Below, piece by piece: positions 35,163 through 60,180 of a stretch of DNA of 64,000 bases. The notes below the pieces were generated by a model. That model searched no databases and had not been told where the DNA came from. It saw only the letters and a program-made list of their open reading frames with translations. The stretch comes from Candidatus Omnitrophica bacterium UBA6249 (GTDB taxonomy: Bacteria; Omnitrophota; Gorgyraeia; Gygaellales; Profunditerraquicolaceae), in NCBI GenBank assembly GCA_002441305.1, contig DJVT01000009.1, positions 345,210 through 409,209 on the forward strand. The letters run 5' to 3'. A program made the position numbers and the translations under genes. The first letter of the stretch is position 1, and each line of letters opens with the position of its first letter.

Positions 35163-36349
35163 TACCGGCCCCTCAATCTATTGGAAATCTCTCTCTGTAA
35201 ATCAAGAATGCGTTTATGCCTGTCTTCCTTTTCTTCCTGGGTAAGGGAATCGGCCAGTTTAGAAGACTGCGTATTCGGCCTGGGGGAATATTTGAATATA
35301 TATGAAGCGTTAAACCCGACGTTCTTGAGCAAGGCACAGGTCTCCTGGAAATCCCCCTCTGTTTCTGTGGGGAAACCTACGATAATATCCGTAGTCAATG
35401 TACCCCCTGTAACGATTCTACGATAAGAGTCGGTTAAAGCCAAGTACTCTTTTACGGAGTACCCGCGGTTCATAAGCTTGAGTATCCTGTCCGAACCGGA
35501 TTGCACCGGAAGATGCAGGGATTTCTCCAGCTTCTCCAGGTCCCTGATGGCGCGGAAAAATTCTTCATTGGCGTCTTTAGGGTGGGAGGTGAAAAAATTA
35601 AAACTCTCCAGCCCTTCCAGCGCGTTTACCTCTTCAAGAAGCCCCCTGAAACCGGAATCCCCCTGGCAATAAGCGTTTACATTCTGCCCCAGGAGGGTAA
35701 TCCTGGATATACCCGAACCCAATGCCCGGAGGATCTCCTCTATAACGCTGGACTGCGCGCGGTGGCGCAATGGCCCGCGCACATACGGAACAATACAATA
35801 CGAACAAAAATTTGAACAGCCCTCGGAAATAACCACGTAAGCATGACTCTTGTCCGCGCGGAAAGAAGTATGATAGACCTCATCCGGCCTCTCCTTGGCC
35901 GCAGTCTCCCAGACCTTCCGCTGGAATAACCCCTCATCCTGGCTCTGTCCTAAAGCAAGAAGCCGGTCAAGAATCGAGGGTATTTTGCCGATATCCTGCG
36001 GCCCCACCACAAAAGAAATCGCCGGGTCGCGCTGGAACGCCTTGTCTTGATAATTCTGCGCCATGCACCCGGCCAACCCGATAATCTTACTGCCTTTATA
36101 ACTCCCGATCAGGCTCCAGACACGGTCCTCGGCATGCTTGCGTACGGAGCAAGTATTAAAGATCACGACATCGGCGTCTTGATCGGAATCACAGACCCGG
36201 TAACCGGCACCCTGGAGAAGCCCGCAGATAATCTCGGAATCCCGGACATTCATCTGGCATCCGAAGGTACGCAAAAGCACACGTAGCTTCTTCGGGCTTT
36301 TGCCTCCGGAATCGCCTGTATTGTCGTCTTTTCGTTCGTTTTCAACCAT
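35162..36349 (-). CDS. miaB: tRNA-i6A37 methylthiotransferase MiaB. The 5' end (36278-36349) is supplied by the integrated element.
   Basis: 395 aa with the UPF0004 domain LRTFGCQMN, the radical-SAM CSNFCSYC motif and a TRAM C-terminus. The first 24 codons lie to the element side of the 20-bp att core and overlap the integrase 3' end in another frame. Confidence 0.85.
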   Translation of the reverse strand: MVENERKDDNTGDSGGKSPKKLRVLLRTFGCQMNVRDSEIICGLLQGAGYRVCDSDQDADVVIFNTCSVRKHAEDRVWSLIGSYKGSKIIGLAGCMAQNYQDKAFQRDPAISFVVGPQDIGKIPSILDRLLALGQSQDEGLFQRKVWETAAKERPDEVYHTSFRADKSHAYVVISEGCSNFCSYCIVPYVRGPLRHRAQSSVIEEILRALGSGISRITLLGQNVNAYCQGDSGFRGLLEEVNALEGLESFNFFTSHPKDANEEFFRAIRDLEKLEKSLHLPVQSGSDRILKLMNRGYSVKEYLALTDSYRRIVTGGTLTTDIIVGFPTETEGDFQETCALLKNVGFNASYIFKYSPRPNTQSSKLADSLTQEEKEDRHKRILDLQREISNRLRGR

Positions 36350-37935
36350 TTCATCCCCTCTTCATAGCAAGTCTTCCAAGGCTCATTCAACTCAAACTTC
36401 ACGATTTCCTGATTCTGGATAGTAATCGACTTAAAGACAATCCGCATGAACGTCTTTATAAGGTAGTCCAATTGGTGATTGTCGCTTTCGGGCGTACTGC
36501 GCAACCTTAAAAGGAAATCCTGCGTCGCTTTCACCAAATTGACGGAATTGCGCTTGTCCAGAATCTTAAGATGAATGGCCTTGATATCCTGCTTTAGTTT
36601 TTTCTCCTCATTACTTAAAAGCTCGGCTCTGTCCTTATAAAGCCCCATATTTATTTTGTCTTCTGAAAATAATTCGTATATAGCCCTTTGCTTCTCCACG
36701 TTCTTTTTAAGAAGCGCTTCCTTCTCCTCCAACTGCTCCATATATACCCGCTCCGGCTCAGAAGCGTTAAGCCGAATCATGTCGCCTAATTCTTCCAGCA
36801 CGTGAAGATTTTTTCTAATAACTTCAACGATATCCCAGACCTGCTTATTGATAGCATCAGCAGTCACGGATTTATTGTTGCACTTAATATACCGAATCCC
36901 TCTAGACGAACATCTATACCACGGACGCCTCATTTTGGTGCGGTGATTAACGATATGCGTCATCCCGCGATAATTACCGCCGCATTCATTGCATTTTAAT
37001 ATACCGGAAAGATGATAAACATTATTCCTGAATCTAACTATGCCATTAGTGCGGTTTCGCTTGAGAAGCGTGGAAGCCTCGTCAAACTCCCTTTGCGAAA
37101 TAATCGGCTCGTGCGTATTCGGGACCTCGATGATCTTGGAAGGATCATTCTTGATATAGCAATATCCCTTTCCCTCGCCATTTTTAGTCTTGATCTTTGT
37201 ATCGTAACGCCGCTTATTCCAGACCAGCATTCCCAAATACACTTTATTTTTAAGGATATCCGAGATGAATTTAGTATAAAACTTCCCGCCCTGCCGCGAA
37301 GGGATACCAAGCATGTAATAATGCCCGGCAATCTGCGAAGTGCTCTTGCCATTTATATACATCGAGAAAATTTCTTTGACGATTTTCGCTTCTTCAGGGT
37401 GGACTTCCAGTTTCTTGGCTTCCTTATTATAACGATAGCCATACGGCGCGTAACGCGCTCCCTGCCAATGCCCCCGCTTAACACCTACAACCATACCCGG
37501 AAAAACGCGCTCAACTAAACGATTACGCTCAAATTCCGCGCAACTGCCAAGCATTTGAATCGCCATTTTGCCCGCGCTCGATGTAGTATCAAACGGCTCA
37601 GTCGCTGATTTATAGCCAACACCCAAAGAATCAATCTCCTCAAGCAATCCTAACAGATCCTTGAGCCGACGACTTAAGCGATCTTGTTTATACACCAAGA
37701 CCAAATCAAACTGCTTATTGCGGGCATCGAAGAGAAGCCTCTGTAATGCCGGTCTATCCATATTGCCGCCGGAATAGCCGTCATCCATATAAACATCCCG
37801 GCCCGACATACTGCAAAAAACATCCCAGCCGAAGTTCTTCGCATATTGCAAAAGATACGTTCTCTGCACCTCCAGCGAAAATCCTTCGCGAGCTTGATCC
37901 TCTGTGCTAACTCTTGTGTATAACGCTACCCTCAT
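36250..37935 (-). CDS. Large serine recombinase (integrase 1)
   Basis: 561 aa with the resolvase catalytic domain ALYTRVSTEDQ, a recombinase domain, the zinc ribbon CNECGGNY...CSSRGIRYIKC and a coiled coil. Its last codons cross the att core. Confidence 0.9.
   Translation of the reverse strand: MRVALYTRVSTEDQAREGFSLEVQRTYLLQYAKNFGWDVFCSMSGRDVYMDDGYSGGNMDRPALQRLLFDARNKQFDLVLVYKQDRLSRRLKDLLGLLEEIDSLGVGYKSATEPFDTTSSAGKMAIQMLGSCAEFERNRLVERVFPGMVVGVKRGHWQGARYAPYGYRYNKEAKKLEVHPEEAKIVKEIFSMYINGKSTSQIAGHYYMLGIPSRQGGKFYTKFISDILKNKVYLGMLVWNKRRYDTKIKTKNGEGKGYCYIKNDPSKIIEVPNTHEPIISQREFDEASTLLKRNRTNGIVRFRNNVYHLSGILKCNECGGNYRGMTHIVNHRTKMRRPWYRCSSRGIRYIKCNNKSVTADAINKQVWDIVEVIRKNLHVLEELGDMIRLNASEPERVYMEQLEEKEALLKKNVEKQRAIYELFSEDKINMGLYKDRAELLSNEEKKLKQDIKAIHLKILDKRNSVNLVKATQDFLLRLRSTPESDNHQLDYLIKTFMRIVFKSITIQNQEIVKFELNEPWKTCYEEGMKWLKTNEKTTIQAIPEAKARRSYVCFCVPSDAR
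36258..36277. repeat. att core copy 1 (CATCCGAAGGTACGCAAAAG), the junction between miaB and element 1
   Basis: Identical 20-mer to 54295-54314. It lies inside miaB codons LLRTFGC and inside the last codons of integrase 1. Confidence 0.8.
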
Positions 37936-38781: not shown

Positions 38782-39465
38782 TTACTCAGCAACCAACTCT
38801 ACCTGCTCCACTGGCTTTGCGGGCTCAGGCCGATATTTTTTCATAAGGTTATTAATCTCCTGCTCGAGGTCGAAATGCGATACCCAGTGATCCCTGACAC
38901 GGATATCCTCCTCGATATCTGCCGTTGTCGGCCTGCGAAGCTCGGCGATACCCTTTTCTTTCTCAGCATGAAAAATACTGTGCGGCTCTGTTCCTAAACT
39001 GGGGCTAAACGCGGGGTAATCTTCCAAATGCCGTCGGGTAGTCTCTGGATGACCGTAGATAGCAAATGCTAAGGCAAACAACCGGCCCTTCGCCTTCCAC
39101 AGATCGAGGATCAACGTCTCCTTCTCTCTGTTCATGGCTTTACGGTCTTCGATGAGCCTTTTCATCTCTTCGTCCCGCTTCTCCGTCAACGCTTCCTCCA
39201 TTTTCGTCTTGAGTTTAGCGAGGCTCTCGGCAACGACATCGAGATTGATATTGCATTCCTCCAACGCCAAATCCGCTAGCTTCACAGCCTCGGGATTAAT
39301 CCTCTCGCCGCACATAACCCGGCTTCTGATTTCTTTTGCTTTCTCTTTAGCTTCAGTTTTTTCCTGCTCGCAGAGCTTCTGCTTTTCTTCAAGCGCCACA
39401 ATCTGCTCGGCGATCTCTTCCGGCGTGCTTTTGCCCTTTAACACGTTTAAAAAATTCAGTTTCAT
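38782..39465 (-). CDS. Coiled-coil hypothetical protein (variable slot of element 1)
   Basis: 227 aa, charged and helical. I recognise no motif. It occupies the position held by the Nu1-like gene in element 2. Confidence 0.5.
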   Translation of the reverse strand: MKLNFLNVLKGKSTPEEIAEQIVALEEKQKLCEQEKTEAKEKAKEIRSRVMCGERINPEAVKLADLALEECNINLDVVAESLAKLKTKMEEALTEKRDEEMKRLIEDRKAMNREKETLILDLWKAKGRLFALAFAIYGHPETTRRHLEDYPAFSPSLGTEPHSIFHAEKEKGIAELRRPTTADIEEDIRVRDHWVSHFDLEQEINNLMKKYRPEPAKPVEQVELVAE

Positions 39466-39772: not shown

Positions 39773-42136
39773 TTAATACGGCCTTGGATCGTCTTCATCA
39801 CAAAAATCCTTTCCTTGTTCACCTTCATTCACGCCTTCGTTCACACTGCCTTTAAAAAGCGAATTACCCTTTATCCTGCGTAAGATAACCAGCTTCCTGC
39901 CGGTACCGGCTTCACGCTTTTCCGGACGTAAAATATCAATGCCCACACTGCGCATAACCGGAGCGATGCGCATAAGCTCTGAACCAAGTGCCCGGGCGTT
40001 GCCGGGTAGCGTCTTATCAAAACCGGTTTCCGGCTTAATGCTCTCAAGCAGTGTGGTCGCAGAACCCGCCCACTCGCCTCCGTTTGACTCCACAAGATAG
40101 ACCAACTTTTGCGCGAATGTGCTCTCTTCTGCGGTGTCCTCCCATTTATGATCAACCGATTGCTGATACCGCTTAAAAAATTCCTCCCGGGAGAATCCCA
40201 AATGCTGTGACAACGCCGCACCCCACTGCGCGAAATCCGACATCCTAAAACGCTCATGCCCGGACACACCGTCAATAACTGCCATTGCGTTTGAAATTGC
40301 CGAAAAGAAACCGCCGAGAATACCGGGAAGCGAAGCCCGCCATTCGTAAGCGATGACTTTCTCCGGCCTTGTCTCTTTTAAGATTGGTATATCGAAGATA
40401 ACTGAACGGTCTAATAGATCCGGACGGCATATAGCACTGCCGATACCGTTTAAAACGAAACATCGGCGATAGGTCCTGATGAATTCCTCATCATTGGTGT
40501 AAAGCGATCGCTTCATATCTCCCTCGCCTGTTACTGCCCGGCATAAAAAATCACTGAACCACTCAGACACGCGAGAAAAATTGTCGAAATTATTCAACCA
40601 GTGTTTATCCGCGATCATCTGCGCCTGCTCTAAATCCTTAGGCACAGAAATGGACATCACCTTGGAAGGATCGCACAGGCTTTTAATCATCCGGGAGTTG
40701 TTAGACTTTCCTGTTCCCTGCTCGCCTATCTGCACTGGTATGACATGAGGAATATCGGGAATAAAGAAAGTCGCTACCGCCGTCATGAATAGACAAGCGT
40801 CATCTTTATTGATATTGCAAAACTCCAAAAGCTTTTTAGGATCAGAGCCCTTGACCGGAAAAACCTGCTCTGCCTGATGGGGGTATCGCTTGAATATTGG
40901 AGGCAGGAAAACAACTTCCCATCCATCTTTAGTAATAATGACCCCGCGCCAGTCTTGAGTGGTCAGGTCATAATAAATAGCCCCGTTATGCCAACCGACA
41001 CGGTTATATAGCTCAACCTGCCTTCCGCCTTCGCACTTCGCCTCAATCTGAACTTTCGCCTGCTTTATAGCTTCGCTCCCGGGCGGATGGCCGAAGTCCT
41101 GCCGGTAACGCAGAGCGCAGTAATTCCTGAAGCGGGAACTGCTTGTCTGGCAAACCTCAAGATGTTTATCAAACGGAAGAACAACGTAAGGATTACCTTG
41201 TTGGTCGCGCAGATATTCGCTAACCGTTTCTTCACAGTCACGGGTGATAATTTCGCCTTGGGTAAGTTTCTTCTGCTTCGGAGATGTTGACGCCTCAAAT
41301 ACATTTTCGGTGTCTTGGACGGCCTTCTGAATAACGCTTTGCCCGTAAGTCTTGCCGTCACCAAAATGTTTCTCATCCCACTTCGGCCGCATAAGCCCCG
41401 ACTGCCGGAACAACGCATCCATCTGCCCGGCGTCTTTGCTTGTCCAAAACGCCAGCTTGTTGCACAACGCCAGATCCGCCTCACTTTGAGAGGGATAATC
41501 GGTCTGCCACTGGCCCGAATAAAGCCGCTGAAACCTCTCCGCGTCTTTACTCTTGGCGATCAAGGTAAGAATGTCGTCTGCGGGCCCTTTATCCACAAAC
41601 CGGCTGAATATATCTTTAAGCGCATCAGTGCACTCGTTAAGCTCAGCCGGATAATTTTCAAGGCGGTTGCCGGTAACGGTAAAGAATCGGCCATTGGTAT
41701 AAATCTCCAAGCCGATCTTGGAAATTTTGCAGGCCCGGGCGATCTCGCCTTTACAAAGGATATGAATACCTGTGCCGCTTGGCGAATATTCGGAATATGA
41801 ATTAATCGCCTTGAGAATCTCAACCGCATACGGCGCGATTGATCCGTCTTTGACGCAGTGGTCAATATCCACGCCCACATACGGCGGCTGAAACATAAAG
41901 CCAATGCCCGCGTAGTTACGCTGAATCGCCAAATCTAAAGCCATTTCAAAATCAGTCCATGTTGCAGGATCGTTGCTTTTCGCAGGCGCGCCGGTCATAA
42001 CATTCATCGGAATCTTGTCAACACGGCCATTGTTCTCTCTGGTGACATAACCCACCCACGCCTTTTGAGACCTAATCTCGGCGGGAATAATTGAAGGCAT
42101 CTTGTTAAAATCTATCATTGCTGTTTGCATCGCCAC
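39773..42136 (-). CDS. Prim-Pol (AEP) primase fused to a DUF3987-like P-loop helicase
   Basis: 787 aa with the N-terminal AEP motifs VGVDIDHC and SPSGTGIHIL, and the PriCT-like block YPSQSEADLALCNKLAFWT...LFRQSGLMRPKW. The Walker A motif is GEQGTGKS. Confidence 0.8.
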   Translation of the reverse strand: MAMQTAMIDFNKMPSIIPAEIRSQKAWVGYVTRENNGRVDKIPMNVMTGAPAKSNDPATWTDFEMALDLAIQRNYAGIGFMFQPPYVGVDIDHCVKDGSIAPYAVEILKAINSYSEYSPSGTGIHILCKGEIARACKISKIGLEIYTNGRFFTVTGNRLENYPAELNECTDALKDIFSRFVDKGPADDILTLIAKSKDAERFQRLYSGQWQTDYPSQSEADLALCNKLAFWTSKDAGQMDALFRQSGLMRPKWDEKHFGDGKTYGQSVIQKAVQDTENVFEASTSPKQKKLTQGEIITRDCEETVSEYLRDQQGNPYVVLPFDKHLEVCQTSSSRFRNYCALRYRQDFGHPPGSEAIKQAKVQIEAKCEGGRQVELYNRVGWHNGAIYYDLTTQDWRGVIITKDGWEVVFLPPIFKRYPHQAEQVFPVKGSDPKKLLEFCNINKDDACLFMTAVATFFIPDIPHVIPVQIGEQGTGKSNNSRMIKSLCDPSKVMSISVPKDLEQAQMIADKHWLNNFDNFSRVSEWFSDFLCRAVTGEGDMKRSLYTNDEEFIRTYRRCFVLNGIGSAICRPDLLDRSVIFDIPILKETRPEKVIAYEWRASLPGILGGFFSAISNAMAVIDGVSGHERFRMSDFAQWGAALSQHLGFSREEFFKRYQQSVDHKWEDTAEESTFAQKLVYLVESNGGEWAGSATTLLESIKPETGFDKTLPGNARALGSELMRIAPVMRSVGIDILRPEKREAGTGRKLVILRRIKGNSLFKGSVNEGVNEGEQGKDFCDEDDPRPY

Positions 42137-42351
42137 GTCCGTATTTGGTTAAGTATTGCCCGGAGTTTACTGTCGTTATATGGCACGCGACAGGTATAAA
42201 GCCACATCTCGACCTCTGAGGCGCGAAACATAACTTCCCCGCTTGGTAGCCTAAAATGCGGGATAAGCCAATTCTTCACCAGATAGTCAATCTGGCTCCG
42301 CCTTAGATTGAGATGAGTCATAAGCCGTTCAACAGTCAATAAGCCTTCCAT
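42115..42351 (-). CDS. AlpA/excisionase-family HTH regulator
   Basis: 78 aa. LLTVERLMTHLNLRRSQIDYLVKNWLIPHFRLPSGEVMFRASEVEMWL matches the HTH_17 pattern. It overlaps the primase start by 22 nt. Confidence 0.6.
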   Translation of the reverse strand: MEGLLTVERLMTHLNLRRSQIDYLVKNWLIPHFRLPSGEVMFRASEVEMWLYTCRVPYNDSKLRAILNQIRTWRCKQQ

Positions 42352-42460
42352 GTGATATCCTCCTCGCGAATTTCTTTTCTACTTGGAGTTTATCACTGGA
42401 AAAATCATGCCTTCCCAGCTTTACCCAAATTTGCTCAAATTTTTACATTGATTGTGCGTA

Positions 42461-42488
42461 AAAAAGAAAAAACGCCCTAAGGCGTTTT
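42461..42488 (-). terminator. Rho-independent terminator after the 203-aa gene
   Basis: The minus strand has the stem AAAACGCC / GGCGTTTT with a 4-nt loop, followed by a T-run. Confidence 0.7.
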
Positions 42489-42522
42489 AGTGGGAATTAC
42501 TGCTATTTTTGTTTTGGAAATA

Positions 42523-43134
42523 CTACTGAGAGGAGTCTTGATCGTCAGCGGTAGGAAGTTCTTCGGCGGCGATCTGCCATTTGCTTCCGATCTTGCGGGC
42601 TAATAACTGATTATTCTCAAGCCAGTTTTGCATGGTCTTACGGCTGATATTAAAAACCTTGGCCCAATGCGTGATTGGATACGGGCTTGACCAGCCGCTA
42701 CGCGGGATTAATTTCGGTCTTATTCTAAACTCAGAAGACATTATCCTGTTTCTTGCACCCATAATACGGTGCATCATCCCAAGTTGCATATCTTTCGTCT
42801 TTTCACACCATTCATTGTAGCCTCCGGGAAGCCACGTTGGAAGCTCAGGGATAACCGGTGTTTCATTCGGCCCGAATAGATATTCTATAATGGGGATAGC
42901 CGCTTGATTGGCTTCCTGATAAAGATTTCCCAAGTCAGGCTTTTTTACTTTATGCTTCTTTAGCGTTTTCTCATACTTGTGGAATACATCATCTTTTGTC
43001 AGCCAATCATAGGAATCGATTGATGAAAGACCGAGCCTTTCAATAGTCAACACCCACTCACTGGAGGCCTTCTCATACGCTGACCACTTTTTCCAGAACT
43101 CCGTAACGCAATCGAGTTTATTCTTTTTATCCAC
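42523..43134 (-). CDS. Conserved 203-aa element protein with C-terminal excisionase-type HTH
   Basis: It aligns along its whole length with 60633-61244 of element 2. The C-terminus reads ITHWAKVFNISRKTMQNWLENNQLLARKIGSKWQI. Confidence 0.7.
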   Translation of the reverse strand: MDKKNKLDCVTEFWKKWSAYEKASSEWVLTIERLGLSSIDSYDWLTKDDVFHKYEKTLKKHKVKKPDLGNLYQEANQAAIPIIEYLFGPNETPVIPELPTWLPGGYNEWCEKTKDMQLGMMHRIMGARNRIMSSEFRIRPKLIPRSGWSSPYPITHWAKVFNISRKTMQNWLENNQLLARKIGSKWQIAAEELPTADDQDSSQ

Positions 43135-43179
43135 AACGGATTATCCTAATCATTGTTAAAATGACCAACATCGCTTCAT

Positions 43180-43395
43180 TTAATCAATACGTAAAGTGCT
43201 GTCCTTAAAAATATTTTTTTCTTCATTCTGGTTCAGTTTTCTAAAAACAAATAGGTGTTCATGCATGATTAAAAGGAAATCCTTGTCCTGCGCGCTCCAG
43301 TATCTGGTAGTCGAACAATTGTGTTGTACTTTTATAACATCTTCTTTGAGTAGGAATCCGGCTTTTAAGAAGCGTCGCATAACAGAAAATGCCAA
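43180..43395 (-). CDS. Hypothetical 71-aa ORF (weak)
   Basis: An ORF with no motif in AT-rich DNA. An equally long antisense ORF overlaps it. Confidence 0.25.
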   Translation of the reverse strand: MAFSVMRRFLKAGFLLKEDVIKVQHNCSTTRYWSAQDKDFLLIMHEHLFVFRKLNQNEEKNIFKDSTLRID

Positions 43396-43462
43396 CGGAA
43401 CATAATGCCTGCGTCGGCGAGTATCTCCGATGAGGATGGCGCAATATTGAAGGCCAATTTAC

Positions 43463-43681
43463 TCAGTCAGCTTTTTCTATATCTTTTTCCTCCTCTGAAA
43501 CACGATTATCTTCACCGCATTGAATAGACAGGACAAGCGGCCCCTTTGCAAAATTCATACAAATTACACCCTGCGAGTCAACAACACCGTTTATATCGGT
43601 ATCTTCCGATAACTGCCAGCCACTATTTTTTAATGTGGCTAATATTTTCTTCGCCTCTTGAATATGATTTTTATCGAGCAT
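43463..43681 (-). CDS. Small hypothetical protein translationally coupled to the DpnI-like gene
   Basis: 72 aa from the internal ATG (MLDKNHIQEAKKILATLKNSGWQL...). It overlaps the DpnI-like stop by 11 nt. Confidence 0.4.
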   Translation of the reverse strand: MLDKNHIQEAKKILATLKNSGWQLSEDTDINGVVDSQGVICMNFAKGPLVLSIQCGEDNRVSEEEKDIEKAD

Positions 43682-44468
43682 TTTCTTCCTTATGCTCCAA
43701 CGGCGTAAGCCGATACTTGCCACGACCGATGAATTCCAAATACCCTTTATCACGTAAAATTTGCAATTGCTGCCTGATCTTATCCTTGATGTGTTTATTG
43801 CCAGGATAAGCTCTCTTTAATTCCTCTTCAAATTTATAAACATCATCTAACAAAAAGTCTTTTTTGTCTAAACGGTCGATGCATTTCATAACCGTTAATG
43901 TCCACCCTCTCGATTCAGATCGGGAAGATTCCCTTAAAAATAGAGTCCTCCGCCATTCAGCCGACACCTTGTCTTTTGGCGAAACCTGATGATCACGTAT
44001 AAAATATATCTTCCCGGCCTCAGGGATAGAACGAAGCAGAATATTGCAACCAACCCAATGGCTCCGCCTAGCCTCAGGTGAGAGCGGTTTTCTCATCTCA
44101 ATAATATCGGCCGTAAAAAAATGTTTTGGGATTACCAAAAAATTTACAACCGCCCATGATGTAATCGAATAATTCAAAAAGAAAAAATTTGGATTATTTA
44201 GATCTTTTAGTCGCTCGAGCATCGTCTCATAAGCGCCATCGACTACTTTATCTCCGATTTTGTCTTTTTTGCTCTTTAACTCAAATTCCTCTCTACAACT
44301 TAGGCAAAAGAAATCCGCGACAGGCCTGCTATTCGGAAATTGCCTAAGAGAAAGCCCACAATTGGGACAATATATCTCTCGCTCAACCCAGTTCTCGGTA
44401 AGAACTCTGGCCTTCTGAGAAGGACTTTTGTATGCCGCCGATAGGCGCTGATCAAGATCGAGGTTCAT
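43671..44468 (-). CDS. DpnI-like methyl-directed type IIM restriction endonuclease (Dam-replacing family)
   Basis: 265 aa that aligns throughout, from memory, with S. pneumoniae DpnI. Shared blocks are SQKAR.LTE.WV....YCPNCG, NRPVADF.C..C.EEFELKSKK, NPNFFFL, SRGWT and NHIK.KIRQQLQILRDK...F.GRGKYR. Confidence 0.85.
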   Translation of the reverse strand: MNLDLDQRLSAAYKSPSQKARVLTENWVEREIYCPNCGLSLRQFPNSRPVADFFCLSCREEFELKSKKDKIGDKVVDGAYETMLERLKDLNNPNFFFLNYSITSWAVVNFLVIPKHFFTADIIEMRKPLSPEARRSHWVGCNILLRSIPEAGKIYFIRDHQVSPKDKVSAEWRRTLFLRESSRSESRGWTLTVMKCIDRLDKKDFLLDDVYKFEEELKRAYPGNKHIKDKIRQQLQILRDKGYLEFIGRGKYRLTPLEHKEENAR

Positions 44469-44622
44469 ATTGGATAGCCGTAGCCAGTCTCCTTAAAACC
44501 GAATAAATATGATCACAATCCTCACCGGCTTCTAGCCAGTTTTTCTTTTCATCATCCCAGCAATAATCCAAGACACGCCTAATATCATCTTCCACCTGCT
44601 CATTCATTATTATTGATCGCAT
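44452..44622 (-). CDS. Possible 56-aa ORF overlapping the DpnI-like start (below the ORF-track cutoff)
   Basis: My own translation is MRSIIMNEQVEDDIRRVLDYCWDDEKKNWLEAGEDCDHIYSVLRRLATAIQYEPRS. Its stop lies 17 nt inside the DpnI-like gene. Confidence 0.3.
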   Translation of the reverse strand: MRSIIMNEQVEDDIRRVLDYCWDDEKKNWLEAGEDCDHIYSVLRRLATAIQYEPRS

Positions 44623-44634
44623 AGGCCTCGTTGA

Positions 44635-45768
44635 TCACCTTTTTTCTTTTGATGCCGAAGAATCTTTTAATGCCCGCTCAATTTCTTTAATTGTCGGCAA
44701 ACTTGATTTCAATTCCTTAGGTAATGCCCGTGTAATTTGATATTCAGACACCCCGATGGCTTTGGTTACGCCTTTCAAAGCATATTCGGCAATAATCTGA
44801 TTCTTATCCTGACACAGGATAAGTCCTATCGTTGGCCTATCTTGTTCATGACAAAGTTGGGCGTCTACCACATTACAATAAAAATTCATTTTTCCCGCGT
44901 ATTCTGGTTTAAATGGCCCCCGCTTGAGATCTACGACAATGAAGCACCGCAAACGCAAGTGGTAAAATAAAAGATCCAGATAAAATTCTTTCGCGCCTAT
45001 GTTCAAGAGATACTGTCGGCCTACAAATGCAAAGCCCTGCCCTAACTCAAGGAGGAATTTCTCAACGTGTGCGAGAAGGCCCAACTCAAGTTCTCGCTCA
45101 TGAAAAGGTTCCGATAAAGTAAGAAAGTCAAAGATATACGGGTCCTTTAAACTTTGCTCTGCAAGATCCGATTGAGCTGGCGGCAATGTCCGCGAGAAGT
45201 TATGAATCACTTTTCCAGAACTTCGATGAGCTGCTGATTTAATCATTGCGCTCAATCTATCGCGACTCCAGCCCTGTTCTATCGTCTGCTGCATATACCA
45301 CAATCTATCATCAAGATCACTTACTTTCTCCATGAGAAGCACATTATGAAACCATGGCAATTTTGCAGCAACCTGCTGCAAAATTAAAGAATGCTTCTGA
45401 CGAGCTTTATTTTTTGCAGCACCCTGCTGCATAATTAACGGCTTCCCATATTCCCGGGCAAAGCGAATCATATACCCAATATTTCTCTCCGAAAAACCCT
45501 TTACCTCTGGCATTTCATTCCGAATATCCCTGGCTAATTTAGGAATAATTGCCGCGCCCCAACCAGCTCTTGCTTGACGTTCAATAATGGCCCGTCCGAT
45601 ATCCCAATAAAGGACAACCATTTCATTATTGACAGCGAACGTGGCTTTAACTTGTGCCGACCGAATACGCTCTTTCACCGCTTTTAAAAAAACAGGATAG
45701 TCGGAAGGCAACCCTGATAACTTTTTAACAGATAGTGAATTACTTGATGGCGACATCTTTTTTGTCAT
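44635..45768 (-). CDS. DUF1016 / YhcG family PD-(D/E)XK nuclease-domain protein
   Basis: 377 aa with the typical YhcG N-terminus (..RIRSAQVKATFAVNNEMVVLYWDIGRAI...). The C-terminal nuclease core reads YLDLLFYHLRLRCFIVVDLK. Confidence 0.8.
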   Translation of the reverse strand: MTKKMSPSSNSLSVKKLSGLPSDYPVFLKAVKERIRSAQVKATFAVNNEMVVLYWDIGRAIIERQARAGWGAAIIPKLARDIRNEMPEVKGFSERNIGYMIRFAREYGKPLIMQQGAAKNKARQKHSLILQQVAAKLPWFHNVLLMEKVSDLDDRLWYMQQTIEQGWSRDRLSAMIKSAAHRSSGKVIHNFSRTLPPAQSDLAEQSLKDPYIFDFLTLSEPFHERELELGLLAHVEKFLLELGQGFAFVGRQYLLNIGAKEFYLDLLFYHLRLRCFIVVDLKRGPFKPEYAGKMNFYCNVVDAQLCHEQDRPTIGLILCQDKNQIIAEYALKGVTKAIGVSEYQITRALPKELKSSLPTIKEIERALKDSSASKEKR

Positions 45769-46397
45769 AAATCATCCTCTAAATTAGGAATCGTATGGAC
45801 TACTACTCCCTGAGCCTGAAAATCATTTCCCGCCACAATAGGTTTATGATTTTTATTCGTCGACCGTGGTTTTAATACCACCGTATGGGCAGAAGCCGAA
45901 TATTCTTTGATTGTAACCTCATTATCGACTAAAGCAACGATCGCCTCTCCGTTTTCGGCGGTTCGTTGTTTCTTAACCAGAATAAAATCCCCATCGTTAA
46001 TTCCTTTTTTATTCATAGAATCACCCTTGGCGCGCAAAAGGAAGTATTTATGCGGAGGTTTAGCGAGTTTCGTTGAGACAGGAAATACAGCTTGAATATT
46101 CTCTTCAGCAAAAATCGGCATTCCACATGGGGCCGTACCCACCAAAGGGATATCAATCGTTTGAATATTAGCCTTATCCTCAAAATCCCGGACGATTTGT
46201 AAAGATCCGATCGGGCTCCTACGAAGAATACCCTTCGAGATGAGTTTATTAACTAACAGAGAAGCAGATCGAGGTGAGCGGTATCCCAGCGTCTTCATCA
46301 AATCGCGCAATGAAGGACATCGACCAAAATTAATTATCGAGCTTCTTATTTCTTTTAGGGCAATATTTTCTTTATCTGAAAGCGTTAATGTTCTCAT
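45765..46397 (-). CDS. LexA-like repressor (winged-helix plus S24 peptidase)
   Basis: It has a LexA-type DNA-binding N-terminus (PSLRDLMKTLGYRSPRSASLLVNKL) and an S24 core (GDSMNKKGINDGDFILVKK, catalytic Ser/Lys context). I use the ATG at 46397. It has a 4-nt overlap with the DUF1016 gene. Confidence 0.8.
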   Translation of the reverse strand: MRTLTLSDKENIALKEIRSSIINFGRCPSLRDLMKTLGYRSPRSASLLVNKLISKGILRRSPIGSLQIVRDFEDKANIQTIDIPLVGTAPCGMPIFAEENIQAVFPVSTKLAKPPHKYFLLRAKGDSMNKKGINDGDFILVKKQRTAENGEAIVALVDNEVTIKEYSASAHTVVLKPRSTNKNHKPIVAGNDFQAQGVVVHTIPNLEDDL

Positions 46398-46414
46398 GTA
46401 TACAATTGTATACA
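46397..46414. promoter_or_regulatory. Perfect 18-bp palindrome abutting the lexA-like start (operator candidate)
   Basis: TGTATACAATTGTATACA is two self-complementary TGTATACA octamers joined by AT. It has an SOS-box-like TGT...ACA periphery. Confidence 0.6.
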
Positions 46415-46687
46415 ATATGAATAAGAAGTCAATGATTTTTTGCGAATTTTATAAGACAAATGTCAGTAGTGCCAAATGTCCATTTGCCAGCAAATATTAA
46501 ATTCTCGTGGGCATTTTCATGTCCATCCATGTCCATCAAAATGCCCTTTTTCGGCCTTCCCGGGAGTCCCTAAAACACCCCTAAAATCGCCTATTTCCCG
46601 TCGCTGGACGCTCATTTTGGCCGGGTTGACCACTTATGCCCAAACCCCAAAAGTGATGGACATGGACATCGATTTTTTTAACCACTA

Positions 46688-46815
46688 TCACTGGCTCCTT
46701 GCGCCTCGCCCGACCCTCACCCAAGCCCCCTTCCAAGGACCCAGTGCCACTTAACAACATATTTCGTAAATACAAGAATCCTCCCGCAATAAGGCATTAC
46801 GGAAGGATTCTTGTA
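46688..46815. repeat. Conserved GC-rich motif copy 2 plus adjacent hairpin
   Basis: TCACTGG..GCGCCTCGCCCGACCCTCACCC..CCAAGGACCC (46688-46742). A hairpin TACAAGAATCCT...AGGATTCTTGTA follows at 46771-46815. It is preceded by GGACAT/ATGTCC word arrays at 46461-46536 and 46656-46669. Confidence 0.8.
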
Positions 46816-46911: not shown

Positions 46912-47328
46912 TCAAGAGAGAGCTTCGCCGTTCGCTTCCGGTTGATAAATGATTTTTTCAACCTGCAGTTTCGCAACACCTGCAGGCACTTTCCATTCAA
47001 TAATATCCCCAACGCTATATCCGAGTAATGCCGTACCAATCGGCGCTAAGATTGAAACTCTCCCCTGACTAGCATCGGCCTGATCGGGGAAAACCAATTG
47101 ATACGTTATTTCTTCTTTTGTGTTTAAATCTCGCAAATGAACTTCCGAGCTCATCGTGATAATGTCCTGCGGAATATCTTGAGATTTTATGATTTTGCCC
47201 CTGTTCAGCTCAGCTTCTAAATCCTGCAAATACTTCTCTTCTTCTTTTTTAAATTGTCTCGCAACCATTATCAATTCCCGTAATCTTCTCATATCATTAT
47301 CGGTAATATATATAGTTTTACTTGTCAT
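46912..47328 (-). CDS. rnk: Rnk / GreA-GreB family regulator (nucleoside diphosphate kinase regulator-like)
   Basis: 138 aa that aligns from memory with E. coli Rnk. Shared blocks are ...VVTM.S.V...........L V.P........VS.LAP.G.ALLG..VGD.I.W..P.G......V....YQPEA. Confidence 0.75.
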   Translation of the reverse strand: MTSKTIYITDNDMRRLRELIMVARQFKKEEEKYLQDLEAELNRGKIIKSQDIPQDIITMSSEVHLRDLNTKEEITYQLVFPDQADASQGRVSILAPIGTALLGYSVGDIIEWKVPAGVAKLQVEKIIYQPEANGEALS

Positions 47329-47345
47329 TTTTACCCCCTCCCTTT

Positions 47346-47663
47346 TTATCCAACAACACGGTTGACATTCATTACAAAAAGAATACCTTGTCCCGGCTCT
47401 TTTAAGTTACCATGTTTTTCCAGTACTTTGATGAGTTTCTCTCTGTTAACATCCAGCGTCAGAAGAATTAAAATCTCTCTAGATGAACCAATCTGCAAAC
47501 CAATTGTGCGTCTACCAGCTTCTGTACACAGCCCCTTACCGGAAAGCACAGTAGCGCCAAAAATCCCAGTGTCTTTAAGGACTGGCATTATTGCCTTTAT
47601 TTTTCCTTTCGGAAGAATAGCCACAATCAGTTTAAGCATCCCGAACCTCTTTCTCTTCATCAT
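47346..47663 (-). CDS. PII-like small signalling protein (beta-alpha-beta x2 pattern)
   Basis: MLKLIVAILPKGKIKAIMPVLKDTGIFGATVLSGKG..., then a T-loop-like segment, then ...GQGILFVMNVNRVVG. The probable start is the internal MLKLIV at 47639. Confidence 0.5.
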   Translation of the reverse strand: MMKRKRFGMLKLIVAILPKGKIKAIMPVLKDTGIFGATVLSGKGLCTEAGRRTIGLQIGSSREILILLTLDVNREKLIKVLEKHGNLKEPGQGILFVMNVNRVVG

Positions 47664-47985
47664 TTCATATCCCCTTTAACTTGTTTTAAATATCCAGCCA
47701 ATAGATCTCATCGACCAATCTGATATGTTCTAGCATCTTCCGAAAGTTTATAAAAACCACGGCTCAAACCGTAACATTAAATTTTATGCCAAATTATCAT
47801 TCGGATTACGGTATAAGCCTGAAAATAATCGAATTCAGCAATAGGCCTCCAGTGTTTTTCTGAGATTGCAGGAGGCCCATTGATCCATGAAGGTTTATCG
47901 TCCCTTTCGTTTTTTACCTTTTTTTGATCGCCACATAATCCCCATCGCCATTCACCTCCTTTCAAGGTCAATGTCGGACAGATTA

Positions 47986-48441
47986 TTAAACGTTTAATAC
48001 TTCTTTCACCCTTCGTTTAATATATTCCATATTAAAAGGCTGATATACCCACTCTTGCACCCCCAATTCAATTAACTTCTCTTTGCCTCTGATATCTTGT
48101 AACGATGACACCACAATAACGCAGGTCCTTAAGCTCATCTTTTTGATTTGCCGCATTATACTTTCGCAATACTCAATCGTCGTTGTAACCCCAACAATAA
48201 CCATATCCACGCGCTTTTGAGCTAACAACTCAAATATTTCCGAATGGCTGGACAGAGAAACCGTATGATAGCCGGATTTTTCCAGAAGCTCTCTAAGGCC
48301 CCGGCCGGGATCATAGTATTTTTGAGCGATCAAAATGGTCAGTTTCGTTCCAATTTTATAGTCCTGCCTCTGTCTAAATAACCGGATTAAGACGCGCCAC
48401 ACCTCTGACATCCTCAATGGTATAAAAAGCACCTTGATCAA
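47986..48441 (-). CDS. Receiver-like domain protein lacking the phospho-acceptor Asp (pseudo-receiver)
   Basis: It has the REC-type pattern LTILIAQ...VDMVIVGVTT...CVIVVSS...KP-like FNM. The canonical DD pair and phospho-Asp are replaced (QK.. and G). The start is uncertain because the ORF overlaps the upstream gene. Confidence 0.5.
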   Translation of the reverse strand: MIKVLFIPLRMSEVWRVLIRLFRQRQDYKIGTKLTILIAQKYYDPGRGLRELLEKSGYHTVSLSSHSEIFELLAQKRVDMVIVGVTTTIEYCESIMRQIKKMSLRTCVIVVSSLQDIRGKEKLIELGVQEWVYQPFNMEYIKRRVKEVLNV

Positions 48442-48910
48442 ATTTCTTTATTATGCCTAAAACGTTATCTAACAACTTGCGCCGGACAATGACAAAAACA
48501 ATCTTCACCGGCCCCGCTGTCCCCTGTCCGTCAATCGTCGTTGCGCCGTATCCTTTGGAACGAAAATATCTCAATAAACTAGCCGGATTTTTATTCGTTA
48601 TAAACTGGACAGCTAAATTGCCTATGGCGATTTTTCGTTCGATTGTAATACCTACAAAAGTGCCCATACTAAAGCCGCCCGCAAAAGCGATATAGCTGAT
48701 CGGGTTATTCAAATTCTGCATAATTTGCGATATGCCGATAAGCCAAACAAGCATCTCAAAAAATCCAATAATAGCAGCTAATGCCCTTATCCCTCGGCTG
48801 ACAAAAATAATCCTGACAGCAGCCATACTGACGTCTGCCGCCCGCGCGAGAAAAATTAAAATAGGAATCAATATTGGAACAAAATCATTTTGCGGAATAA
48901 CAAAAGACAT
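48374..48910 (-). CDS. UPF0316 family membrane protein with DUF2179 domain
   Basis: 178 aa with three TM helices (...ARAADVSMAAVRIIFVSRG...) and a C-terminal soluble domain (GYGATTIDGQGTAGPVKIVFVIVRRK). Confidence 0.6.
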   Translation of the reverse strand: MSFVIPQNDFVPILIPILIFLARAADVSMAAVRIIFVSRGIRALAAIIGFFEMLVWLIGISQIMQNLNNPISYIAFAGGFSMGTFVGITIERKIAIGNLAVQFITNKNPASLLRYFRSKGYGATTIDGQGTAGPVKIVFVIVRRKLLDNVLGIIKKFDQGAFYTIEDVRGVARLNPVI

Positions 48911-48957
48911 GTCTAAAATACCTCCTTTTTAATTCTCGCTACTTAACACTGGCTAAG

Positions 48958-49140
48958 TTATTTTTCCCTTATGGACTCCTGGAATCCTATAGGCCACCCA
49001 GTTTTAAATTGATAAAACACACACCTTATAAAACTACCACGGCAATGTTCTTCCTGTCGTTTCTCACTGGGAGAAAAGGCATTACTCGATACTCCTTCGC
49101 AAAAATTATTCCTTTCTTTCGATATAAAATACGGACACAT
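48958..49140 (-). CDS. Small 4-Cys protein, paralog 1 (MCPYF...C...C..F..C..YQ)
   Basis: 60 aa. It shares MCPYF, four Cys at matching spacing, and a terminal YQ with the ORF at 50606-50797. It starts 3 nt after the dual-REC stop. Confidence 0.55.
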   Translation of the reverse strand: MCPYFISKERNNFCEGVSSNAFSPSEKRQEEHCRGSFIRCVFYQFKTGWPIGFQESIREK

Positions 49141-49142
49141 GA

Positions 49143-49871
49143 TTAATTTCCTCTGCCAACATTAAGAATGCGCTCAACTTTCTCTATGAGGATGCTGACA
49201 CCTTCCGCTTTATCAAAATAATCGTCCGCTTCTTTGATTAAAGACTGCTGATCATCTTTCGGAAAGACGCTAGACACTATGATTTTTACTGGAGGGGTTC
49301 TTCCCTTGATTCTTTCATAAACTTCCATGCCGATTTTCTTGGGAAGCGCGATATCAAGAATGACTAATCCAATACCCCGCTCTTTAGCAAACAATTCAAG
49401 TCCCGACTCTCCGTCTTCGGCTTCCAGAGTGCGGTATCCAAGATTCTCCAATTGGTTACTGAATAACTTTCTTATTTTGAATTCATCTTCGATAATAAGT
49501 ATCGTGTTTAACGGCATTAAACTGCGCGCAACTTTCTTGATTTTCTCAAGCAAAATATCGACACCTTGAGCTTTGTCATAGTACTCTGCGGCATCTTTCA
49601 TTATTTCCCGCTGTTCTTCAACAGGATAAACGCTCGTTACAATTACTTTTATGCTCTTATGAAATACCTGCATAAGATCAAACAATACGCTTCCATAAAC
49701 ATGAGGAAGGTTGATGTCCAGCAGGATAATATCAAAATGTTTTCTAAGTAAAATTTCGCTGGCTTGCACGGCGTCAGAAACGCTTACCACTGCATACCCT
49801 TCGCTTTCAAGCAATTCCGCATGTAACTTTCGCACCTTGTCCTCATCTTCAACTATCAATATCCTCATCAT
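49143..49871 (-). CDS. Response regulator consisting of two tandem receiver domains and no output domain
   Basis: 242 aa. REC1 reads ILIVEDE...FDIILLDINLP and REC2 reads ILIIEDE...GLVILDIALP. Both end with a similar ..DDYFDKA.GV.IL.EK motif. Confidence 0.8.
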   Translation of the reverse strand: MMRILIVEDEDKVRKLHAELLESEGYAVVSVSDAVQASEILLRKHFDIILLDINLPHVYGSVLFDLMQVFHKSIKVIVTSVYPVEEQREIMKDAAEYYDKAQGVDILLEKIKKVARSLMPLNTILIIEDEFKIRKLFSNQLENLGYRTLEAEDGESGLELFAKERGIGLVILDIALPKKIGMEVYERIKGRTPPVKIIVSSVFPKDDQQSLIKEADDYFDKAEGVSILIEKVERILNVGRGN

Positions 49872-49943
49872 TTAGAATTCCCGTCTTTTATTCGTTTAAT
49901 AAGCAGCAGTAAGGCTGGGAAAGCGTAAAATTGCGAATAATTC

Positions 49944-50609: not shown

Positions 50610-50797
50610 GCCTCATCACTTTTTGATCCCCGCACGGATTTGATAATAATGGACTTCATTTGTAATTGATAGAGTGGGCAATTCATAAATTTACCGACAC
50701 AATATTGTCTTTTGCGTTTGATGTTGGGGCGAAATAAACCGTCTCCGTAACATCCGCAATGACCAATCGGTCTTGTAGCAACAAAATAAGGACACAT
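50606..50797 (-). CDS. Small 4-Cys protein, paralog 2
   Basis: 63 aa from the internal ATG (MCPYFVATRPIGHCGCYGDGLFRPNIKRKRQYCVGKFMNCPLYQ...). It has a 4-nt ATGA overlap with the PhoU-like gene. Confidence 0.55.
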   Translation of the reverse strand: MCPYFVATRPIGHCGCYGDGLFRPNIKRKRQYCVGKFMNCPLYQLQMKSIIIKSVRGSKSDEA

Positions 50798-52697: not shown

Positions 52698-52714
52698 TAT
52701 TTGCTCCTAAGAAT

Positions 52715-60176: not shown

Positions 60177-60180
60177 TTCT

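What the first reader, a model, noticed from the sequence alone, without database searches (positions are those of the whole stretch)
42523..43462. The conserved 203/204-aa HTH gene marks the boundary between the shared core and a variable cargo hotspot
The two elements align well up to and including this gene (42523-43134 versus 60633-61244), its terminator (42461-42488 versus 60545-60583) and a roughly 60-nt conserved block in the following intergenic region (around 42375-42440 versus 60470-60535). Directly beyond the gene the two elements have nothing in common. Element 1 has weak small ORFs followed by DpnI-like, DUF1016 and lexA-like genes and then a signalling and ion cluster. Element 2 has the giant ORF. 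This is the signature of a fixed insertion hotspot for accessory or defence genes, as described for other satellite families.
Basis: partly seen in the sequence, partly recalled or inferred. Interest (0 to 1): 0.55.

Follow-up and report, generated by a model that had tools for sequence, protein, structure and literature searches.

The report
Defence-gene swap site in Omnitrophota elements
A conserved 203-residue DNA-binding gene marks one edge of a slot where related integrative mobile elements of Omnitrophota bacteria carry different restriction or anti-phage gene sets, a known kind of hotspot seen here in a new element family.

Summary
The two 203-aa genes (42523-43134 and 60633-61244, minus strand) are 77% identical. 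Each is followed by a terminator and a conserved block of about 95 nt. Similarity stops at the start codon.

Across 16 distinct gene sets found upstream of this gene in relatives, 15 contain restriction-modification or known or candidate defence genes. Elements with 98-99% identical flanks carry three different sets.

Corrections:
- The "giant ORF" is a Dsr1 (defence sirtuin) homologue cut by the window end.
- The small ORFs are a methyltransferase remnant.
- In element 1 the variable slot is only 43135-46513, closed distally by a conserved 230-nt block.
- The signalling and ion cluster is conserved cargo of element 1.
- Element 1 spans 36258-54294 and abuts element 2 in tandem.

Both elements use a large serine recombinase that targets the 5' end of miaB and supplies a replacement MiaB N-terminus.

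Turnover looks like homologous recombination between conserved flanks. The 203-aa protein has a novel helical domain plus an Xis/BldC-like winged helix. It is probably a regulator acting on three phased repeats just downstream; that is inference.

This is a new member of a known kind, of moderate interest.

The parts
42523..43134 (-). 203-aa anchor gene of element 1. It has a novel helical N-domain plus a C-terminal Xis/BldC-like winged helix.
60633..61244 (-). 203-aa anchor gene of element 2. Its start overlaps the end of the upstream Dsr1-like gene by 17 nt.
42469..42488 (-). Intrinsic terminator after the element 1 anchor gene.
60552..60583 (-). Intrinsic terminator after the element 2 anchor gene.
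42352..42465 (-). Conserved intergenic block of element 1. It holds three phased direct repeats (TTGrGyAAw) and a -10-like GTGATAAACTC ahead of the HTH_17 gene. Putative operator and promoter of the replication module.
   Evidence: The function is inferred.
60412..60551 (-). The same conserved intergenic block in element 2.
43135..46513 (-). Variable defence cassette of element 1. It holds LexA (45765-46415), DUF1016/PDC-S02 (44635-45768), DpnI-type methyl-directed REase (43671-44468), an unknown 96-aa ORF (43463-43753) and a methyltransferase remnant (43135-43448).
46514..46746 (-). Conserved 230-nt block that closes the variable slot distally. It starts with the G-rich D9 motif and contains the inverted repeats ATGTCCATGTCCATC / GATGGACATGGATGGACAT.
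46912..54175 (-). Conserved far cargo of element 1, 98-99% identical in relatives. Genes: GreA/Rnk-like, P-II-like, DUF5698/DUF2179, response regulators, PhoU-like, histidine kinase, Na+/H+ exchanger.
54270..54311 (-). Junction between the recombinase-side arm of element 2 (...TTGCGTACCTTCGGATG, ending at 54295) and the distal arm of element 1 (GCCGTTGTCTACCTTATAGACAC..., from 54294 downward).
36233..36349 (-). Replacement MiaB N-terminus carried by element 1, overlapping the recombinase 3' end in another frame. The junction with host miaB follows ...CTTCGGATG (36258).
36250..37935 (-). Large serine recombinase of element 1.
38782..39465 (-). 227-aa core gene of element 1, with no family match.
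39773..42136 (-). Prim-pol replicase of element 1 (NrS-1 polymerase helix-bundle domain).
42115..42351 (-). 78-aa HTH_17/excisionase-like gene of element 1.
54230..56110 (-). Large serine recombinase of element 2.
56906..57532 (-). Terminase-small-subunit-like gene of element 2.
   Evidence: phrog_57, E 2e-20.
58035..60308 (-). Primase plus D5-type helicase replicase of element 2.
60181..60411 (-). DUF5659 small gene of element 2, in the position held by the HTH_17 gene in element 1.
61228..63981 (-). Dsr1-like defence gene, the cargo of element 2. The C-terminal 917 aa are visible; the ORF runs off the window.
   Evidence: Dsr1 E 3e-85, profile 507-1225/1227.

Best explanation
The window holds two related integrative, self-replicating mobile elements of Omnitrophota, arranged in tandem next to miaB. 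Element 1 spans 36258-54294. Element 2 runs from 54295 to beyond 64000.

Each element has a large serine recombinase at one end. The recombinase recombines inside the Cys codon of the MiaB 'GCQMN' motif. The element carries a substitute MiaB N-terminus, so the host gene stays intact.

The 203-aa gene is the first gene of a conserved module: 203-aa gene, terminator, conserved repeat and promoter block, small HTH gene, replicase. Directly upstream of it lies a slot that holds a different restriction-modification or anti-phage gene set in each lineage.

The sets are exchanged by homologous recombination between related elements. The conserved sequences on either side serve as homology arms: the 203-aa gene, the intergenic block and the replicase on one side, and the 230-nt block or LexA gene on the other. 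Occasional illegitimate joins leave gene remnants.

Inference: the 203-aa protein is a DNA-binding regulator that acts on the three phased repeats just downstream of its own terminator and so controls the replication module. It is often co-transcribed with the last cargo gene.
For: Shown: element ends.
- The same distal sequence, GCCGTTGTCTACC..., abuts four different upstream sequences in the window, LiM, L010/L012 and L011.
- The first 34-39 MiaB residues are identical in three hosts whose MiaB proteins are otherwise about 50% identical.
- Junctions are listed.

Shown: fixed position.
- In every locus with enough downstream flank, the 203-aa gene is followed by an HTH_17 or DUF5659 gene and then a replicase.
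- Where the flank reaches far enough, an integrase follows: serine in most loci, tyrosine in three.

Shown: variable and defence-rich content.
- Sixteen distinct compositions were found, and 15 have restriction-modification or defence hits.
- These are type I, II, IIG, IIM and III restriction-modification, Dsr1 twice, Avs4-like, Pycsar cyclase, TIR-like, and PDC-S02, S15, S62 and S63.

Shown: turnover between near-identical elements.
- The window versus LiM is 99.2% identical over 54305-46508. There is no homology over 46507-43149, then 81-98% over 43148-40649 and 99-100% over 40648-36399.
- The window versus the L015 type has breakpoints at 45799 and 43448, the latter inside a methyltransferase gene.
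- The HTH and prim-pol genes of element 1 are 95-100% identical to L031/L034, whose 203-aa protein is only 69% identical.

For the regulator inference.
- The C-domain resembles Pukovnik Xis and BldC, which bind direct repeats (local probability 0.9).
- The repeat block is conserved in all members, including those with a tyrosine integrase.
- Start-codon overlap with the upstream gene is seen in element 2, L004 and L006.
Against: - No empty miaB site and no excised circle was seen, so mobility is inferred from comparisons alone.
- Breakpoints are not identical between pairs, and the 203-aa genes of the two window copies are only about 75% identical in DNA. That is low for efficient homologous recombination, so exchange probably occurs between closer relatives than these two.
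- Defence function rests on family matches; nothing was tested. Some hits are lone methyltransferases or candidate (PDC) families.
- One cassette (L029) has no hit.
- The role of the 203-aa protein is untested. Its HTH_17 score (25.2 bits) is below Pfam's cut-off of 27, and its N-domain has no structural or sequence relative of known function.
Confidence: 0.75

Rival explanations
1. The loss of similarity is simply the end of the element. Under this reading the 203-aa gene is the terminal gene, and what lies beyond it is unrelated host chromosome at two different insertion sites.
For: Similarity between the two window copies stops exactly at the start codon. Element 2 is not followed by miaB.
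Against: The distal junction of element 1 is 11 kb further on, at 54294. The cassette is flanked on both sides by sequence shared at 98-99% with elements in other hosts whose MiaB is only about 50% identical. G+C stays near 40% from 43 to 54 kb, against 50% in the host part.
Confidence: 0.03
2. Cassettes are captured by a site-specific mechanism, integron-like or driven by a dedicated recombinase, at a defined site next to the 203-aa gene or at the 230-nt block.
For: Breakpoints recur at 46508-46514 (LiM, L012, L003) and at 43134-43148 (LiM, L003, element 2). The 230-nt block carries inverted and direct GATGGACAT repeats that could be a protein-binding site.
Against: Other pairs break elsewhere, at 45799 and 43448, inside genes. 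No repeat is shared by the two edges of the slot. The swapped tract against LiM extends 2.5 kb into the core at 81-98% identity, as expected for homologous exchange. No extra recombinase is conserved next to the slot.
Confidence: 0.1
3. There is no special turnover. The two window elements are old, separately evolving lineages whose accessory genes differ by slow descent, and the defence content is incidental.
For: The two window copies are only about 75% identical. Some cassettes are stable across many samples: the Dam-type cassette occurs in L010, L011, L013 and L015-L018.
Against: Three different cassettes sit between 98-99% identical flanks (the window, LiM and the L015 type). A methyltransferase remnant documents a recent replacement. 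Fifteen of 16 cassette types carry restriction-modification or defence genes.
Confidence: 0.07

Closest known systems
Defence hotspot of P4-like satellites, between psu and int (Rousset et al. 2022, PMC9122126; see also PMC13586616)
   Same: An integrative element with an integrase, primase-type replicase and small HTH regulators carries, at one fixed position relative to core genes, a different anti-phage or restriction system in each relative. The cassette edges sit in conserved flanking sequence.
   Different: - The integrase is a large serine recombinase (tyrosine in a minority), not the P4 tyrosine integrase.
- No psu, sid, delta or cos was found.
- The anchor is a 203-aa protein with a novel domain.
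- The host phylum is Omnitrophota.
- Element 1 has a second, conserved cargo tier (ion and signalling genes) beyond the slot.
- No helper phage or packaging is known.
Phage-inducible chromosomal islands (PICIs) and related satellites, as defined for SatelliteFinder (PMC10085698)
   Same: Element 2 has an integrase, an HTH regulator, a primase-helicase and a terminase-small-subunit-like gene, which is the PICI core set. Accessory defence genes sit at one end.
   Different: - Element 1 lacks any packaging gene.
- Gene order differs.
- The integrase is of the serine type.
- No relative was found in 2.9 million viral contigs.
- Induction by a helper phage is unknown.
Large-serine-recombinase prophages and islands that integrate within a host gene, and tandem accretion of islands at one att site (from general knowledge)
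   Same: The recombinase gene lies at the element end next to the att junction. Integration is into a coding sequence. Arrays form by repeated use of the same locus.
   Different: Here the element restores the 5' end of the target gene. The replacement N-terminus is encoded in a second frame overlapping the recombinase 3' end. The restored junction apparently remains usable, giving tandem arrays in at least three genomes.
Dsr1 defence-associated sirtuin (PADLOC PDLC04166; DSR family, bioRxiv 10.1101/2021.12.14.472415)
   Same: The cargo ORF of element 2 matches the C-terminal 720 positions of the Dsr1 profile (E 3e-85). Its homologue in L006 is preceded by a SIR2_2 gene.
   Different: The N-terminal SIR2 part lies outside the window, so the architecture is not verified.

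Membership tests
Defence hotspot of a mobile element (P4 psu-int type) | The variable locus lies at a fixed position relative to conserved core genes. | tested here: met
   The variable region always lies directly upstream of the 203-aa gene, which is always followed by an HTH gene and a replicase.
Defence hotspot of a mobile element (P4 psu-int type) | Closely related elements carry different gene sets at the locus. | tested here: met
   Three sets occur between 98-99% identical flanks. There are 16 compositions overall.
Defence hotspot of a mobile element (P4 psu-int type) | The content is dominated by known defence systems. | tested here: met
   Fifteen of 16 compositions hit restriction-modification or PADLOC models. 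No formal comparison with the genome background was made.
Defence hotspot of a mobile element (P4 psu-int type) | The cassettes protect against phage. | not testable with these tools
   This needs experiments, and no cultured phage-host system exists for these bacteria.
Phage satellite (PICI-like or P4-like) | Integrase, regulator and primase/replicase core. | tested here: met
   The integrase is of the serine type.
Phage satellite (PICI-like or P4-like) | A gene that redirects helper packaging (TerS, Sid/Psu, capsid genes). | tested here: inconclusive
   Element 2, L004 and L026 have a TerS-like gene (phrog_57 E 2e-20). Element 1 has none.
Phage satellite (PICI-like or P4-like) | Found in virions, or induced by a helper phage. 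| tested here: not met
   No relative of the anchor gene was found in the IMG/VR viral contigs. Induction cannot be tested.
Large serine recombinase integrative element | Resolvase + Recombinase + Zn_ribbon_recom architecture. | tested here: met
   (E 8e-34, 2e-22, 5e-11).
Large serine recombinase integrative element | Defined left and right junctions with a common crossover. | tested here: met
   All junctions fall at ...GG(N)TG| within the Cys codon of the GCQMN motif.
Large serine recombinase integrative element | An empty target site or an excised circle is observed. | not tested
   No uninterrupted miaB of a close relative was retrieved. L011 and L010/L012 show native-looking 5' fragments at the distal junction.
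Excisionase/MerR-type HTH_17 (the 203-aa protein) | Score above the Pfam gathering threshold. | tested here: not met
   25.2 and 23.6 bits against a cut-off of 27. TIGR01764 gives 20.1 bits against 28.8.
Excisionase/MerR-type HTH_17 (the 203-aa protein) | A winged-helix fold like Xis/BldC. | tested here: inconclusive
   Local Foldseek matches to Pukovnik Xis and BldC have probability about 0.9 and rmsd 2.4-2.8 A over 41-45 residues, but E is above 0.1.
Dsr1 | An N-terminal SIR2 domain plus the Dsr1 C-terminal region. | tested here: inconclusive
   The C-terminal region matches. The N-terminus lies outside the window.

The most novel reading that the evidence does not exclude
The miaB locus of Omnitrophota works as an expandable array. 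Each incoming element restores the MiaB N-terminus and thereby recreates a usable attachment site, so elements stack in tandem. Related elements then share a cell and trade defence cassettes.

In this reading the 203-aa protein is a new type of regulator. It is co-transcribed with the cassette and gates the replicase promoter, coupling defence expression to element replication.
Probability: 0.25. Interest if true: 0.7.

Novelty: new member of a known kind. Interest (0 to 1): 0.5.

Why it matters
Omnitrophota are uncultivated, mostly ultra-small and partly predatory bacteria, and very little is known about their mobile elements and phage defence.

This family gives a concrete, easily searchable anchor: the 203-aa gene plus the miaB junction. 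It can be used to catalogue defence systems in the phylum and to mine unannotated cassette genes as candidate new systems.

It also supplies a serine recombinase with att arms that can be read off the sequence, and whose target is a conserved motif of a near-universal gene.

The concept of a defence hotspot in an integrative element is already established in Proteobacteria and Firmicutes. The result therefore extends a known principle rather than overturning one.

Tried and rejected
- Rfam at a permissive threshold on 36-64 kb gave no match, so the 61-nt D9 motif and the 230-nt block are not a described RNA family.
- An RNA fold of the 230-nt block gave z = -2.2, which is not decisive.
- A search for an inverted or second copy of the recombinase-side arm found only the two known arms. 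The distal arm had to be found by comparison instead.
- My first idea, that element 1 ends at the 230-nt block near 46746, was rejected. The region beyond it is 99% identical in hosts with divergent MiaB, and a sharp common junction lies at 54294.
- The viral contig scan gave no relatives.
- Foldseek against the PDB and BFVD, and a profile search of PDB sequences, found nothing for the N-domain of the 203-aa protein.
- PADLOC, PHROGs and NCBIfam gave nothing for the 227-aa core protein.
- Literature searches for Omnitrophota with serine recombinase, and for miaB as a serine-integrase target, found nothing relevant.
- The GATGGACATG repeat is not significantly enriched window-wide: 6 matches against 3 expected.

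Full report
**1. The observation**

All relevant genes are on the minus strand. The ORF at 42523-43134 (203 aa) and the homologous frame at 60633-61244 (203 aa) are 77% identical in protein. Their DNA is 74-77% identical.

Each gene is followed by an intrinsic-terminator-like hairpin with a T tail, at 42488-42469 and at 60583-60552. After that comes a conserved intergenic block of about 95 nt.

At coordinates above 43134 and 61244, that is upstream of the start codons, the two copies share nothing.

**2. What the two elements are**

Self-comparison shows a shared, collinear set of sequences: 36349-38115 vs 54512-56316, 38139-38313 vs 56711-56885, 41343-41551 vs 59374-59582, and 42368-43130 vs 60454-61238.

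| Part | Element 1 | Element 2 | Evidence |
|---|---|---|---|
| Large serine recombinase | 36250-37935 | 54230-56110 | |
| Replicase | prim-pol, 39773-42136 | primase + D5 helicase, 58035-60308 | |
| Small gene after the 203-aa gene | HTH_17, 42115-42351 | DUF5659, 60181-60411 | |
| 203-aa gene | 42523-43134 | 60633-61244 | |
| Other | 227-aa gene with no family match, 38782-39465 | GIY-YIG 56360-56653; TerS-like 56906-57532 (phrog_57, E 2e-20) | |

The closest public relative of element 1 is in Candidatus Velamenicoccus archaeovorus LiM (Omnitrophota). The other relatives are in Omnitrophota MAGs and metagenome contigs.

**3. Element ends**

*Recombinase side.* The host gene next to element 1 encodes a MiaB/RimO-family methylthiotransferase. 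Its first 34-39 residues (MVENERKDDNTGDSGGKSPKKLRVLLRTFGCQMN) are identical in the window, in LiM and in MAG STD1_87. The rest of the protein is only about 50% identical.

This N-terminus is encoded in a second frame that overlaps the recombinase 3' end. The element therefore integrates into the 5' end of miaB and supplies a replacement 5' end.

Element 2 carries the same device (…KRILLRTFG). After …CCTTCGGATG, however, it continues into sequence that is not miaB.

*Distal side.* Aligning the region upstream of the Na+/H+ exchanger gene in the window, LiM, L010, L011 and L012 gives a sharp break. Everything from GCCGTTGTCTACCTTATAGACAC… downward is identical in all five. Everything before …GG(N)TG| is different:

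- In the window it is the recombinase arm of element 2.
- In LiM it is the 3' end of another serine recombinase.
- In L011 and in L010/L012 it is a native-looking methylthiotransferase 5' fragment (…IFIETYGW and …VFLKTMGW).

Element 1 therefore spans 36258-54294 (18 kb) and lies in tandem with element 2. A second tandem case is L006. The sequence after its recombinase is collinear with the far-upstream cargo of L003. LiM is a third case.

G+C agrees with these limits. It is about 50% up to 36 kb and 36-47% from there to the end of the window.

**4. The slot upstream of the 203-aa gene**

I collected the gene's surroundings from one genome scan, one metagenome scan and six exact-protein look-ups.

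*Downstream.* The order is always the same. The 203-aa gene is followed by the terminator and conserved block, then an HTH_17 gene of about 79 aa (DUF5659 in element 2 and L004). Next comes a replicase of one of three types, then an integrase. The integrase is of the serine type in most loci and of the tyrosine type in L019, L030 and L041.

*Upstream.* The content differs from locus to locus:

| Locus | Gene set directly upstream of the 203-aa gene |
|---|---|
| Window element 1 | LexA + DUF1016 (PDC-S02) + DpnI-type methyl-directed REase |
| Window element 2 | Dsr1-like |
| LiM (= L023) | HTH_3 + type III Mod/Res |
| L003 | LexA + type II MTase/TdeIII |
| L004 | type I R-M + RadC + Avs4-like + PDC-S63 |
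| L006 | type I R-M + split Dsr1 + a 312-aa protein |
| L010/L015 type | LexA + Dam MTase + 179-aa + 430-aa proteins + N6/N4 MTase |
| L020 | type I R-M + YgjP + PIN-TPR protein + TIR-like |
| L024 | variant of the Dam set |
| L027 | LexA + MTase + REase + MTase |
| L031/L034 | RadC + C5 MTase + REase + Vsr |
| L032 | type IIG + PDC-S15 + PDC-S62-like |
| L033 | mad2-like + MTase + REase |
| L035 | Pycsar cyclase + PDC-S62-like + PDC-S63 |
| L037 | PDC-S62-like |
| L029 | no hit |

Fifteen of the 16 compositions contain restriction-modification or defence-model hits.

The family of the 203-aa protein is very narrow. It comprises 26 clusters at 90% identity, nearly all of exactly 203 aa. At 50% identity it collapses to a single cluster among 1.84 billion representatives, and only three other proteins share its N-domain.

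**5. Limits of the slot, and how it turns over**

Among element-1-type relatives the distal 7.8 kb is 98-99% identical. It runs from the exchanger to the GreA-like gene and on through a 230-nt block at 46514-46746. The signalling and ion cluster is therefore conserved cargo, not part of the variable slot. The slot itself is 43135-46513.

Breakpoints differ between pairs:

| Comparison with the window | Distal breakpoint | Proximal breakpoint |
|---|---|---|
| LiM, L012 | 46508 | 43148 |
| L003 | 46514 | 43134 |
| L015 type | 45799 (inside the LexA 3' end) | 43448 (inside an N6/N4 methyltransferase gene) |

They are the remnant of a replaced cassette.

A sliding identity plot of the window against LiM gives:

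| Window interval | Identity to LiM |
|---|---|
| 54305-46508 | 99.2% |
| 46507-43149 | no homology |
| 43148-40649 | 81-98% |
| 40648-36399 | 99-100% |

A tract containing the cassette, the 203-aa gene, the HTH gene and the N-terminal half of the prim-pol gene has therefore been exchanged.

In addition, the HTH and prim-pol genes of element 1 are 95-100% identical to those of L031 and L034. The 203-aa protein of those two loci is only 69% identical to the window's. A further joint must lie in the conserved intergenic block.

This mosaic is what homologous recombination between related elements would produce, and tandem arrays would bring such elements together. No conserved short repeat marks both edges of the slot.

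**6. The 203-aa protein**

The AlphaFold model has mean pLDDT 85. It shows a helical N-domain (residues 4-136) and a C-terminal winged helix (154-189).

- The C-domain matches phage Xis, BldC and RacA locally. It scores just below the HTH_17 and excisionase thresholds.
- The N-domain has no match by fold or by sequence.
- The intergenic block after its terminator carries three direct repeats of TTGrGyAAw at about 10-nt phasing. A -10-like GTGATAAACTC follows. The block is conserved in all members, whatever their replicase or integrase type.

Xis and BldC-type domains bind phased direct repeats. This is established knowledge of those proteins and was not tested here. I therefore infer that the protein regulates the replication-module promoter.

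In element 2, L004 and L006 its start codon overlaps the last cargo gene. It is then probably the last gene of the cargo transcript.

**7. Comparison with known systems, and verdict**

The arrangement works like the psu-int defence hotspot of P4-like satellites (PMC9122126), and like the accessory ends of PICIs. This element family is different in several respects:

- It has a serine recombinase.
- It uses a miaB 5' target, and the gene is restored through an overlapping frame.
- Its anchor gene has a novel domain.
- It has two tiers of cargo.
- It belongs to a different host phylum.

Satellite membership is unproven. Only some members have a TerS-like gene, and no relative appears among the viral contigs. 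I found no paper describing these elements.

It is a new member of a known kind and of moderate interest.

Noticed in passing
window 36233-36349 and 54295-54420 (minus strand): The 3' end of each serine recombinase gene also encodes, in another frame, a substitute MiaB N-terminus. It is MVENERKDD...LRTFGCQMN in element 1 and MSNKERND...LLRTFG in element 2. The first 34-39 residues are identical in three hosts whose MiaB proteins are otherwise about 50% identical.
   Followed up: yes
window 54294/54295; also L009 about 6378 and L006 about 16662: Tandem stacking of related elements. The recombinase arm of one element is fused directly to the distal arm of the next. This is seen in the window, in LiM (with a different element carrying Phage_rep_O) and in L006.
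   Followed up: partly
window 38599-38659, 46686-46746, 57686-57746; 32 copies across the fetched loci: A conserved G-rich motif of about 61 nt (GGGTCC...GGGGG N3 GGG N3 GGG N2 GGG CGAGGCGC ... CAGTGAT), always on the gene strand. It is followed by an A-run and GATGTC(C)ATGTC(C)AT. It occurs once upstream of the recombinase module and once at the head of the 230-nt block. It has no Rfam match and its function is unknown; a G-quadruplex-like tract is possible.
   Followed up: partly
window 43135-43448: The small ORFs are the 3' remnant of an N6/N4 DNA methyltransferase gene that is intact in L010 and L015-type elements.
   Followed up: yes
window 46405-46432: A promoter-like site (TTGACT, 16 nt, TACAAT) overlaps a tandem palindrome, ATTGTATACAATTGTATACA, directly before the element-borne LexA gene. 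This looks like an autoregulatory operator.
   Followed up: no
window 45765-46415: The element-borne LexA-like protein passes the NCBIfam LexA equivalog cut-off (137.6 bits against 110.95). LexA heads the cassette in several relatives and is replaced by a 67-aa HTH_3 protein in LiM.
   Followed up: partly
window 56360-56653 and 56906-57532: Element 2 carries a GIY-YIG nuclease gene and a terminase-small-subunit-like gene between the D9 motif and the recombinase gene. Element 1 has neither.
   Followed up: partly
window 40649: There is an abrupt change from 81-87% to 100% identity with LiM inside the prim-pol gene. This is a recombination joint between the N-terminal prim-pol part and the C-terminal part.
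   Followed up: partly
L019, L030, L041: The 203-aa gene, the conserved block and the HTH gene also occur in elements with a tyrosine integrase and a DUF3854/AAA_25 replicase. The module is therefore combined with different replication and integration machineries.
   Followed up: partly
window 35162-36349: The MiaB-like protein of the window (395 aa) ends at about profile position 371 of 437 of the MiaB model. This suggests that the C-terminal TRAM domain is missing. Pfam records a weak TRAM hit for L015's 425-aa homologue.
   Followed up: no
window 2774-2977: tRNA-Val(CAC) and tRNA-Met(CAT) genes lie in the host part of the window. They are unrelated to the elements.
   Followed up: no
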